Of a DNA stretch of 64,000 nucleotides, positions 61,601 to 64,000 are shown one piece after another. The position numbers were made by a program. The stretch's first letter is position 1, and the number at the start of each line of letters is the position of its first letter. Source of the stretch: Escherichia coli (GTDB taxonomy: Bacteria; Pseudomonadota; Gammaproteobacteria; Enterobacterales; Enterobacteriaceae); NCBI RefSeq assembly GCF_050320075.1, contig NZ_CP190018.1; one strand, 5' to 3'.

Positions 61601-64000
61601 TTACTTGGTATATGATGTCGTATATGGATTATCTTTCTAAAGCAAACTAATGGTAACTAAATATGACAAAAGTTCTTGAGAATGAAGAGTTCAATTCTAT
61701 ACATATAGACGAAGGTGGGGTTTTTAATAGTTTACGCTTTGAAAAATGTCTTTTTCAAAGCTGTAGCATACTTAGCAGAAAACTAAATGATAATAGTGAT
61801 TTACCTCCTCGCTTTGAAAACATTCTCATTAAAGATTGCACTGCTCTTAATTGTGTAAGTGGCCCAGCTTTTTTAAAAGATGTAACTGTTGAGAATTTTA
61901 GGACCGGTGATATTTTTCTTATTTATTCCACTATGTTTCATCATGTAACATTAAAAGGAAAGCTTGGGGCAATAAAAATAAATAAAAAAGATTATGTGCG
62001 TGACTATGATAGCCATCAAAGACATATTGAGATGATGAGAACGAGATTTTATTCTCAGATAGATTGGGCGATGGATATATCACAGGCGAAGTTTTTAAGT
62101 TTCTCCTGCAAAGGTATCCCAGCAAAATTAATTAGACGAGATAGTGAGACTCAATTTGTTGTAACGAGGAAACGTTTCAACTCTATGGATGTACTAAATG
62201 CAGAATTTAAAGGACAATACCCGTTTGTTTATTTACTGCTGGAGCTCTTTTTAGAATCAGATGAAGATGACCAGGTATTAGTTACACCATTAGGCAAAGC
62301 AAAAAAATATTATCAGCCAATTCTCGAAGGATTTAGAGAGTTAAGACGAGCAGGAATACTCGAACCTAACTAAATAAGGGTTATATTCCGCCAGGATGAA
62401 CGGCGTCTGGGCATAGAGTACGACCACCACAACCGGCCGGAAACACTCACCGACGTGATGGGCCGCGAACACCACACCGAATACAGTGGTCACGACCTGC
62501 CGGTGAAGATGCGCGGCCCCGGCGGTCAGTCAGTGCGCTTACAGTGGCAGCAGCACCATAAACTGAGTGGCCTTGAGCGCACTGGCACCGGCGCGGAAGG
62601 ATTCCGCTACGACCGCCACGGCAACCTGCTGGCCTGGACGGACGGTAACGGTGTTGTCTGGACAATGGAATACGGCCCGTTTGATTTGCCGGTGGCGCGA
62701 ACGGACGGTGAAGGCCACCGCTGGCAGTACCGCTACGATAAAGACACGCTGCAACTGACAGAAGTCATTAACCCGCAGGGTGAGTCATATCTTTATGTTC
62801 TGGATAACTGCGGCCGGGTGACGGAAGAGCATGACTGGGGCGGCGTGGTCTGGCGTTACCGCTATGACGCCGATGGCCTGTGTACCGCCAGGGTCAACGG
62901 CCTGGAGGAAACCATCCTCTACAGCCGGGACGCCGCAGGCCGCCTGGCAGAAGTCATCACGCCGGAAGGCAAAACGCAGTATGCCTATGACAAATCCGGC
63001 AGGCTGACGGGTATCTTCAGCCCGGACGGCACATCACAGCGCACCGGCTATGACGAACGCGGGCGGGTGAATGTCACCACTCAGGGCCGACGGGCCATTG
63101 AATACCACTACCCCGACGAACACACCGTCATCCGCTGTATCCTGCCACCGGAAGATGAACGCGACAGACACCCCGGTGAATCCCTGCTGAAAACCACGTA
63201 CCGCTACAACGCCGCCGGAGAACTGACGGAGGTCATTCTGCCGGGGGATGAGACGCTGACGTTCAGCCGTGATGAGGCAGGACGTGAAGTGCTCCGGCAC
63301 AGTAACCGGGGTTTTGCCTGTGAACAGGGCTGGAATGCAGCCGGTCAGCCTGTCAGTCAGCGCGCCGGACTTTTCCCGGCAGAAGCCACATGGGGCGGGC
63401 TGCTCCCCTCACGGGTACGGGAGTACCGTTACGACAGCGCGGGTAATGTGTCAGGCGTCACCAGCCGGGAAGATTACGGACGGGAAACACGGCGGGAATA
63501 CCGGCTGGACCGGAACGGCCAGGTCACGGCGGTGACAGCCTCAGGCACCGGGCTGGGCTATGGCGAAGGCGATGAGTCCTATGGCTATGACAGCTGCGGC
63601 TACCTGAAGGCGCAGTCTGCGGGCTGGCACCGGATAAGTGAAGAGACTGACCAGTATGCCGGAGGCCACCGGCTGAAACAGGCCGGAAACACGCAGTATG
63701 ACTATGACGCCGCAGGCCGGATGGTCAGCCGCATAAAACACCGTGACGGCTACCGCCCGGAAACAGAGCGGTTCCGGTGGGACAGCCGTGACCAGCTGAC
63801 CGGGTATTGCAGCGCACAGGGTGAACAGTGGGAATACCGCCACGACGCCAGCGGCAGACGGACGGAAAAACGCTGCGACCGGAAGAAAATCCGCATCACG
63901 TACCTGTGGGACGGCGAAGTATTGCGGAAATCCGGGAATACCGCGATGATAAACTGTACAGCGTACGGCACCTGGTGTTTAACGGCTTTGAGCTGATAAG

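What the first reader, a model, noticed from the sequence alone, without database searches (positions are those of the whole stretch)
62383..64000. Orphan rhs core copy forms a long direct repeat with the expressed rhs
Starting 10 bp after the immunity stop, the sequence re-enters rhs core homology matching main-rhs positions 59187 onward. By eye it is collinear to the window end, with scattered substitutions (for example AYTDGNG to AWTDGNG, EERDWGG to EEHDWGG) and one 1-bp deletion (gacagtattg becomes gaagtattg near 63917). The copy has no start codon or PAAR region and is in frame with the immunity stop, so it is not independently translatable. Orphan rhs fragments are known to hold alternative CT/immunity modules that homologous recombination can move into the expressed gene. 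A repeat of at least 1.6 kb at a few percent divergence is ample substrate. The frameshift could be real decay or a sequencing error.
Basis: seen in the sequence. Interest (0 to 1): 0.6.

Follow-up and report, generated by a model that had tools for sequence, protein, structure and literature searches.

The report
Displaced orphan rhs toxin tip
This is an ordinary, already catalogued feature of E. coli: the old toxin-bearing end of an rhs gene, pushed downstream when a new toxin/immunity cassette was inserted, which leaves a 2-kb direct repeat that can recombine with the intact gene.

Summary
Window 62383-64000 is collinear with main-rhs 59187-60805. It has 1618 aligned bases, 38 substitutions (97.65% identity) and one 1-bp deletion. 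The window's last 15 kb are identical to E. coli YZLc1-3 (NZ_CP123240.1), so I could read past the window end. The repeat runs 2032 nt, up to the PxxxxDPxGL motif. The orphan then ends in a different toxin domain (Tox-MPTase4), followed by a 69-aa ORF, core vestiges and ISEc1. There is no second complete rhs.

The same tandem layout occurs in 158 of 5426 complete E. coli genomes, so it is not an assembly artefact. Roughly 700 or more genomes carry a single full-length rhs-MPTase4 gene at this cusS/nfrB site. One of them matches the orphan core at all but 2 substitutions. The two copies differ mostly at synonymous sites (pN/pS 0.145). The orphan is therefore the displaced resident 3' end, not a decaying duplicate.

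Mosaics of main-type and orphan-type alleles occur in related genomes, which fits recombination between the copies. The 1-bp deletion is found only in this assembly.

All of this matches published models (Jackson 2009; Koskiniemi 2014). Interest is low.

The parts
54398..56299 (+). vgrG (T6SS spike protein), first gene of the island inserted between cusS and nfrB
   Evidence: TIGR03361 E=5.7e-188; annotated VgrG in NZ_CP123240.1
56327..56788 (+). DcrB/DUF1795-family protein, the position and family of Eag-type chaperones for prePAAR effectors
   Evidence: Pfam DcrB PF08786 E=1.7e-27. The chaperone role is inferred from family and position.
56808..61640 (+). Full-length main rhs (1610 aa): prePAAR, PAAR, YD repeats, Rhs core ending in PNPCGYVDPLGL, then a 140-aa CT
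   Evidence: prePAAR_I E=3.7e-5, PAAR E=2.4e-10. Closest solved structure is Tre23, 7pq5, E=2e-258.
59187..61219 (+). Upstream copy of the direct repeat (3' part of the main core)
   Evidence: Alignments
61220..61640 (+). Main CT toxin region, GC 0.41, with no Pfam or PDB sequence match
61663..62373 (+). Putative cognate immunity gene of the main CT (236 aa, GC 0.34)
   Evidence: Role inferred from position. In complete E. coli genomes it is found only together with this CT (158 genomes). No Pfam or NCBIfam hit.
62374..62382 (.). 9-nt spacer and novel junction between the incoming cassette and the displaced core. The junction sits at the same position in lineages with different orphan CTs (read directly in L006, which has one SNP just upstream).
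62383..64000 (+). Orphan rhs core fragment (downstream repeat copy), cut by the window end. In the source genome it continues to window-equivalent 64865, with core to 64414 followed by a Tox-MPTase4 CT.
63917..63918 (+). Site of the 1-bp deletion (C of GACAG missing). It shifts the frame and gives a stop at 63994-63996.
   Evidence: Private to this assembly.

Best explanation
The segment is the 5'-truncated, displaced 3' end of the rhs gene that formerly occupied this cusS/nfrB locus. It is an 'orphan' or 'dissociated' rhs-CT module.

Origin (inferred). The ancestor had vgrG, a DUF1795 gene, one full-length rhs ending in a Tox-MPTase4 toxin, and a small immunity ORF. A cassette then inserted by recombination within the conserved core. 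It carried a 3' core allele, a new CT, a new immunity gene and a 9-nt junction. The new CT became fused to the delivery part of the gene. The resident core, from the equivalent of 59187 onward, was shunted downstream together with its MPTase4 CT and immunity ORF. The result is a 2032-nt direct repeat.

Consequences (inferred).
- The orphan toxin cannot be loaded on VgrG because it lacks the prePAAR/PAAR N-terminus.
- Its immunity ORF probably stays useful against relatives that still fire the MPTase4 toxin.
- RecA-type recombination between the repeats can convert alleles between the copies. It can also fuse the main delivery region to the orphan CT, either by deletion or after duplication.
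- In this particular assembly the 1-bp deletion means only crossovers in the distal 497 nt would give an in-frame chimera.
For: Shown directly:
- Repeat of 2032 nt at about 97.5% identity, ending exactly at PxxxxDPxGL, with unrelated CTs after it.
- Orphan CT is Tox-MPTase4 with an HEVIH motif.
- GC falls from 0.60-0.62 in the cores to 0.32-0.41 in the CT and immunity regions.
- The main CT and immunity gene occur in 158 of 5426 genomes. Core sequence always follows directly after the immunity gene.
- 893 genomes have a place covering at least 80% of a main-core/MPTase4 test sequence. This count includes the tandem genomes. All seven simple-arrangement genomes I inspected have a single full-length rhs-MPTase4 at the same locus.
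- The simple-arrangement strain WP4-S17-ESBL-08 differs from the window orphan by only 2 substitutions plus the indel over 2033 nt.
- The left flank of 9.4 kb is identical in five strains, apart from one mismatch in one of them.
- pN/pS between the copies is 0.145, with 35 synonymous and 16 non-synonymous differences. This is allelic divergence, not decay.
- Mosaics: the Nord58 orphan carries main-type tracts. Simple genes switch between main-type and orphan-type alleles at four or more different intervals.

From the literature:
- nfrB/cusS is listed as conserved E. coli rhs locus 4, and the displacement model is set out, in PMC2935791.
- In Salmonella, 522 bp at 95% identity sufficed for main/orphan recombination (PMC3967940).
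Against: - No expression, secretion, toxicity or immunity data exist for this locus.
- The main-type/orphan-type mosaics could partly reflect exchange of alleles between strains rather than recombination between the two copies in one chromosome.
- LH85-a and E-1246 have a main-type core fused to MPTase4. Both switch allele type within the last 100 nt or so of the core. This could mean they represent an ancestral recipient allele rather than deletion recombinants.
- The original event that created the junction at 62382/62383 cannot be reconstructed.
Confidence: 0.88

Rival explanations
1. The 3' part of rhs duplicated in place, and the downstream copy is now decaying as a pseudogene.
For: The orphan lacks a 5' end and, in this assembly, carries a frameshift.
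Against: - The two copies end in unrelated CTs and are followed by unrelated small ORFs.
- Differences are mostly synonymous, pN/pS 0.145.
- The orphan core is nearly identical to the intact single gene of a close relative.
- The orphan is open over 828 codons in the other strains examined.
Confidence: 0.03
2. The repeat is an assembly artefact, either a misassembled tandem duplication or a chimeric contig.
For: Repeats of 2 kb are hard to resolve with short reads. The 1-bp deletion is unique to this assembly.
Against: - The same layout and junction occur in 158 independently assembled complete genomes from many hosts and countries.
- The copies differ at 51 positions, and each is joined to unique sequence.
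Confidence: 0.01
3. In addition to, or instead of, serving as a recombination reserve, the orphan CT and immunity pair is expressed on its own. Expression would come from a promoter and start site inside the 3' core, as a toxin-antitoxin-like module, as reported for Salmonella Typhimurium.
For: In Salmonella, internal P2 promoters lie just upstream of the PxxxxDPxGL-coding region of both the main and orphan rhs. The authors report similar sequences in E. coli (PMC7043789). The frameshift at 63917 lies about 500 nt upstream of that region and would not affect such expression.
Against: - The consensus promoter scan over the orphan and its surroundings found 9 sites against 5.7 +/- 2.4 expected. 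None was on the + strand inside the orphan core or CT.
- This E. coli core belongs to a different sequence type from the Salmonella P2 region.
- No transcript data exist.
Confidence: 0.2
4. LH85-a and E-1246 (main-type core plus MPTase4 CT in a single gene) are the ancestral recipient allele. A circular cassette carrying orphan-type core integrated into this allele near the 3' end of the core. On this reading they are not deletion recombinants derived from the tandem.
For: Both switch from main-type to orphan-type alleles only in the last 100 nt or so of the core: 61118/61184 and 61199/61217. Two independent random crossovers are unlikely to land there. The circular-intermediate model allows this outcome (PMC2935791).
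Against: - It requires the incoming circle to carry a core almost identical to a resident allele of the same clonal background.
- It requires a separate import whose right edge coincides with the core/CT boundary.
- Mosaics with switch points elsewhere exist: 59921/60017, 60302/60814 and others.
Confidence: 0.3

Closest known systems
Dissociated rhs C-terminal tips formed by C-terminal displacement (Jackson et al. 2009, BMC Genomics 10:584; PMC2935791)
   Same: - A core fragment plus an alternative tip sits downstream of an intact rhs.
- The core fragment belongs to the same clade as the main gene.
- GC drops at the tip.
- The same chromosomal site (nfrB/cusS) is listed there as E. coli rhs locus 4.
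- Related strains have either the undisplaced gene or the displaced arrangement.
   Different: Jackson et al. reported core regions of associated and dissociated copies as identical within a strain. Here they differ at 51 of 2033 positions. That makes the donor and resident alleles distinguishable and exposes mosaics.
rhs-main / rhs-CT-orphan locus of Salmonella Typhimurium LT2, STM0291/STM0292 (Koskiniemi et al. 2014, PLoS Genet; PMC3967940)
   Same: - Full-length T6SS-linked rhs with its immunity gene.
- It is followed by an orphan with core homology, a different CT and its own immunity gene.
- Homologous recombination across the shared core fuses the orphan CT to the delivery part.
   Different: - The homology here is 2032 nt at 97.5%, against 522 bp at 95%.
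- Recombination here is only inferred from natural mosaics, not observed experimentally.
- The orphan of this strain carries a frameshift.
- Some natural single-gene forms look like simple deletions rather than the duplication-then-recombination route described for Salmonella.
Class I prePAAR Rhs effectors with Eag (DUF1795) chaperones and a cognate VgrG, for example Photorhabdus Tre23 (PDB 7pq5; PMC8636562)
   Same: - Gene order vgrG, DUF1795 gene, PAAR-rhs, immunity gene.
- prePAAR and PAAR motifs.
- Rhs cage ending in the DPxGL autocleavage motif.
- E=2e-258 to Tre23.
   Different: The CT toxin differs and has no Pfam or PDB sequence match. This comparison concerns the main gene, not the orphan.
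Orphan cdiA-CT/cdiI modules and displaced T6SS effector-immunity arrays (Poole et al. 2011, PMC3150448; Kirchberger et al. 2017, PMC5361080)
   Same: Silent toxin tips and immunity genes accumulate downstream of the active gene after successive replacements. Retained immunity genes protect against the former toxin.
   Different: The delivery systems are different (CDI, or Vibrio auxiliary clusters). The length of retained upstream homology is much greater here.

Membership tests
Orphan (dissociated) rhs-CT / rhsI module | [quoted passage not shown] | tested here: met
   The orphan starts 10 bp after the stop of ORF 61663-62373, which follows rhs 56808-61640.
Orphan (dissociated) rhs-CT / rhsI module | Contains only the 3' part of the core and lacks the N-terminal delivery region and a genuine start | tested here: met
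   Homology begins at main position 59187, which is codon 794 of 1610. Nothing upstream of it matches. PGAP flags it as 'missing N-terminus'.
Orphan (dissociated) rhs-CT / rhsI module | The core ends in PxxxxDPxGL and is followed by a CT unrelated to that of the main gene | tested here: met
   PNPCGWVDPLGL is followed by a Tox-MPTase4 domain (E=4e-33). The main gene has PNPCGYVDPLGL followed by an unrelated 140-aa CT. This part lies beyond the window end and was read in L001 and L002.
Orphan (dissociated) rhs-CT / rhsI module | A small low-GC ORF follows and acts as the cognate immunity protein | tested here: inconclusive
   A 69-aa ORF (WP_001299578.1, GC 0.32) follows in the tandem genomes with this CT and in every simple-arrangement genome examined. 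Immunity function cannot be tested, and there is no family hit.
Orphan (dissociated) rhs-CT / rhsI module | Can be fused to the main gene by homologous recombination across the shared core | tested here: inconclusive
   Natural genes with a main-type core fused to the orphan CT exist, as do mosaic orphans. The direction of these events, and whether they occurred within one chromosome, is inferred only.
T6SS class I prePAAR Rhs effector (the main gene that provides the other repeat copy) | prePAAR and PAAR motifs, YD repeats and an Rhs-associated core, with adjacent vgrG and DUF1795 genes | tested here: met
T6SS class I prePAAR Rhs effector (the main gene that provides the other repeat copy) | T6SS-dependent secretion and target-cell killing | not testable with these tools
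   No expression or secretion data. I did not check whether a T6SS core cluster is present in this genome.
Tox-MPTase4 (PF15640) zincin-like toxin domain | Full-length match to the Pfam model, with an HExxH metal-binding motif | tested here: met
   Model positions 1-132 of 132 are matched at E=4.1e-33. HEVIH is present in the translated orphan of L002.

The most novel reading that the evidence does not exclude
The main-type/orphan-type mosaics among complete E. coli genomes may be footprints of toxin switching in the wild at this one locus. They would reflect gene conversion between the two copies (as in Nord58) and repeated deletion fusions that re-arm the MPTase4 tip while discarding the newer toxin and its immunity gene (LH85-a, E-1246 and the CFSAN061763 class). 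In parallel, the cassette with its fixed 9-nt junction may have spread by flanking core homology into lineages with other resident tips (A28). That would make the cusS/nfrB rhs locus a natural record of how often orphan activation happens outside the laboratory.
Probability: 0.45. Interest if true: 0.35.

Novelty: already known. Interest (0 to 1): 0.15.

Why it matters
The finding has little discovery value. The phenomenon, its mechanism and this chromosomal site are all published, and RefSeq already annotates the fragment as a partial rhs pseudogene.

Its practical value lies elsewhere:
- It is a well-resolved example in which the donor and resident core alleles can be told apart at 51 sites.
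- Population data could therefore be used to count conversion and fusion events at an rhs locus.
- For this strain, the private frameshift would restrict productive recombination to the last 497 nt of the repeat.

Tried and rejected
- **Main CT and immunity proteins.** Pfam, NCBIfam and PDB sequence searches of the main CT and the main immunity protein, and an NCBIfam search of the orphan immunity ORF, gave no significant family. Their biochemical activities stay unknown.
- **PADLOC.** The scan failed because one DNA reference was out of frame. I did not repeat it, since this is not a defence-system question.
- **Promoters and terminators.** The consensus scan over the orphan region was not enriched over shuffles, so it gives no support for internal expression.
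- **Two-piece hit in strain Ec-U3.** The 3416-nt span looked like a possible insertion or amplification. The annotation shows the ordinary tandem layout. The extra span is probably an artefact of joining a second match of the short core part of the query.
- **Main-type alleles confined to tandem genomes.** I first assumed main-type alleles occur only in tandem genomes and two recombinants. Searches showed main-type tracts in other single-gene strains, so I dropped that claim in favour of a mosaic population.
- **In-situ duplication and assembly artefact.** Both were rejected; see the rival explanations.

Full report
**1. The observation**

A local alignment of 59100-60900 against 62300-64000 gives two blocks. 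Main 59187-60721 pairs with 62383-63917, and main 60723-60805 pairs with 63918-64000. Together they contain 1618 aligned bases, 38 substitutions (97.65% identity) and one 1-bp deletion, where C60722 has no counterpart. The repeat finder reports the same blocks.

A 9-nt spacer follows, and homology begins at 62383. The orphan frame is the frame of that ORF. After the deletion, the shifted frame stops at 63994-63996.

One detail needs amending. In-frame GTG 62455 and ATG 62458 exist. They are internal codons shared with the main gene, and I saw no evident ribosome-binding site ahead of them by eye.

**2. Where the window comes from and what lies beyond it**

The last 15,001 bases of the window are identical to E. 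coli YZLc1-3 chromosome NZ_CP123240.1. The locus reads, in order:
- cusS
- vgrG (54398-56299; TIGR03361 E=5.7e-188)
- a DcrB/DUF1795 protein (56327-56788; PF08786 E=1.7e-27)
- the full-length rhs (56808-61640), with prePAAR, PAAR, YD repeats and Rhs core. Its closest solved relative is Tre23, 7pq5, E=2e-258.
- a 236-aa ORF
- the orphan

Past the window end, core homology continues to main 61219, giving 2032 nt in all. It stops exactly after the PxxxxDPxGL motif, which reads PNPCGYVDPLGL in the main gene and PNPCGWVDPLGL in the orphan.

The orphan then encodes a Tox-MPTase4 domain (PF15640, E=4.1e-33, HEVIH motif). The main CT has no Pfam or PDB sequence match. A 69-aa ORF follows the orphan, then short core vestiges, ISEc1 and nfrB.

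GC is 0.60-0.62 in both cores and 0.32-0.41 in the CTs and small ORFs.

**3. Not an artefact, and not a local duplication**

The main CT plus its downstream ORF occur in 158 of 5426 complete E. coli genomes. Exactly 158 genomes have a place covering at least 80% of 61000-64000, which requires core sequence directly after that ORF. A junction-spanning query gives 159; the extra genome is a deletion derivative. The layout is therefore reproducible across independent assemblies.

The 51 differences between the copies are 35 synonymous and 16 non-synonymous, pN/pS 0.145. That is the signature of two functional alleles that diverged under purifying selection. It is not the pattern of a copy decaying after duplication.

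**4. Polarity: the orphan is the old resident end**

I built a test sequence joining the main core to the orphan CT. A place covering at least 80% of it occurs in 893 genomes, and this count includes the tandem genomes. The top 40 hits cover all of it in one piece, and in all seven such genomes that I inspected it is a single full-length rhs-MPTase4 gene at the same cusS/nfrB site, with the same downstream ORF, vestiges and ISEc1.

In one of these, WP4-S17-ESBL-08, the core differs from the window orphan by 2 substitutions plus the indel over 2033 nt. It differs from the main copy at 50 positions. The 9.4-kb left flank, including the first 2379 nt of rhs, is identical among two tandem and three single-gene strains, apart from one mismatch in one single-gene strain. 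The right flank differs by 0-3 sites among four of them.

The simplest reading is as follows. A single-gene ancestor received a cassette made of a divergent 3' core allele, a new CT, a new immunity gene and the 9-nt junction. The resident 3' end was pushed downstream as a result.

This is the C-terminal displacement model of Jackson et al. 2009. That paper lists nfrB/cusS as conserved E. coli rhs locus 4 and proposes integration of a circular intermediate by a single crossover in the core (PMC2935791).

The same junction position is found in another lineage (strain A28), where the orphan carries a different CT and two other small ORFs. This suggests the cassette spread by homology in the flanking core (inference).

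**5. Evidence bearing on recombination between the copies**

I scored the 51 diagnostic sites as main-type (M) or orphan-type (O).
- **Nord58 (tandem).** The main copy is pure M. Its orphan has M tracts at 59340-59345 and 59635-60302 within an O background, as expected from gene conversion.
- **LH85-a (single gene).** M through 61199, then O.
- **E-1246 (single gene).** M through 61118, then O.
- **CFSAN061763 (single gene).** M through 59921 and O from 60017.
- **WP5-S18-ESBL-07 (single gene).** O through 60302, mostly M from 60814 to 61118, then O.

These patterns are what deletion fusions and conversions between the two copies would leave. They could also arise from allele exchange between strains. 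LH85-a and E-1246 switch only in the last 100 nt or so, so they could instead be an ancestral recipient allele. I treat the recombination role as well supported in principle but not proven for any single strain.

The experimental precedent is Salmonella LT2. There, 522 bp at 95% identity sufficed for main/orphan recombination, which followed duplication of the locus so that main immunity was kept (PMC3967940).

**6. The frameshift**

A 61-nt query carrying the deletion matches at 100% over its full length in only one record, NZ_CP123240.1. This is out of 2259 genomes and 3009 places that carry this core segment.

The closest relatives do not have the deletion and have a 2484-nt open orphan. 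They include Ec-U3, which is annotated with the same NfrA protein accession and, like YZLc1-3, an internal stop in nfrB. The context, GGCGA[C]AGT, is not a homopolymer. The deletion is either a very recent mutation or an assembly error. Only the reads can decide.

The consequence, by inference, is that a crossover upstream of 63917 would carry the frameshift into the chimera. In this strain only the distal 497 nt (12 mismatches) would give a functional fusion.

**7. Possible independent expression**

In Salmonella, internal promoters just upstream of the DPxGL-coding region express both main and orphan CTs inside the cell (PMC7043789). A simple consensus scan here found no excess of promoter-like sites, and none on the + strand inside the orphan. 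This remains possible but unsupported.

A terminator-like hairpin lies after the orphan's small ORF (L001 16229-16260). This is compatible with read-through transcription of the orphan immunity ORF from the rhs operon (inference).

**8. Verdict**

The feature is an ordinary, already described orphan rhs tip at a catalogued locus, and RefSeq annotates it as a partial pseudogene. Interest is low. The modest added value is the clear donor/resident allele contrast and the natural mosaics.

Noticed in passing
window 61220-62373: The CT of the main rhs (140 aa) has no Pfam or PDB sequence match, and the 236-aa downstream ORF has no Pfam or NCBIfam match. This is an uncharacterised toxin/immunity pair present in 158 of 5426 complete E. 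coli genomes.
   Followed up: partly
L006 (NZ_CP096587.1, strain EC6622) 9001/9002; equivalent to window 59173 joined to 62099: A 2925-nt deletion with little or no microhomology removes the main 3' core, the CT and most of the immunity gene. Its left end lies only 14 nt upstream of the repeat start. It leaves two pseudogenes.
   Followed up: partly
L007 (NZ_CP028747.1, strain A28) 9444-12881: This locus has the same main CT, immunity gene and junction position. Its orphan ends in a different CT and is followed by two other small ORFs (86 and 95 aa). Both the main and orphan rhs are annotated as frameshifted there.
   Followed up: partly
L001 16157-16216 and 16318-16497 (beyond the window end): Two further vestigial rhs core pieces lie between the orphan's small ORF and ISEc1. 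A 62-nt piece is 80.6% identical to main 59146-59206 and straddles the repeat start. A 180-nt piece is 91.7% identical to main 58232-58411. They are likely relics of older rearrangements.
   Followed up: partly
L011 (NZ_CP139846.1, strain Nord58) 6284-8767: The orphan core carries long main-type tracts (equivalent to 59635-60302) in an otherwise orphan-type sequence. This looks like gene conversion from the main copy.
   Followed up: partly
L001 18051-20288 (nfrB, beyond the window end): nfrB, the phage N4 adsorption-related glycosyltransferase gene, is annotated with an internal stop in YZLc1-3 and also in strain Ec-U3. A stop flagged in two independent assemblies is more likely a real mutation than an assembly error. 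I did not check that it is the same stop.
   Followed up: no
L001 16229-16260: A 14-bp-stem hairpin followed by a T-rich tail lies just after the orphan's small ORF. It may be the terminator of the whole vgrG-rhs transcription unit. It overlaps the start of a short ATG-initiated ORF seen when reading the sequence.
   Followed up: no
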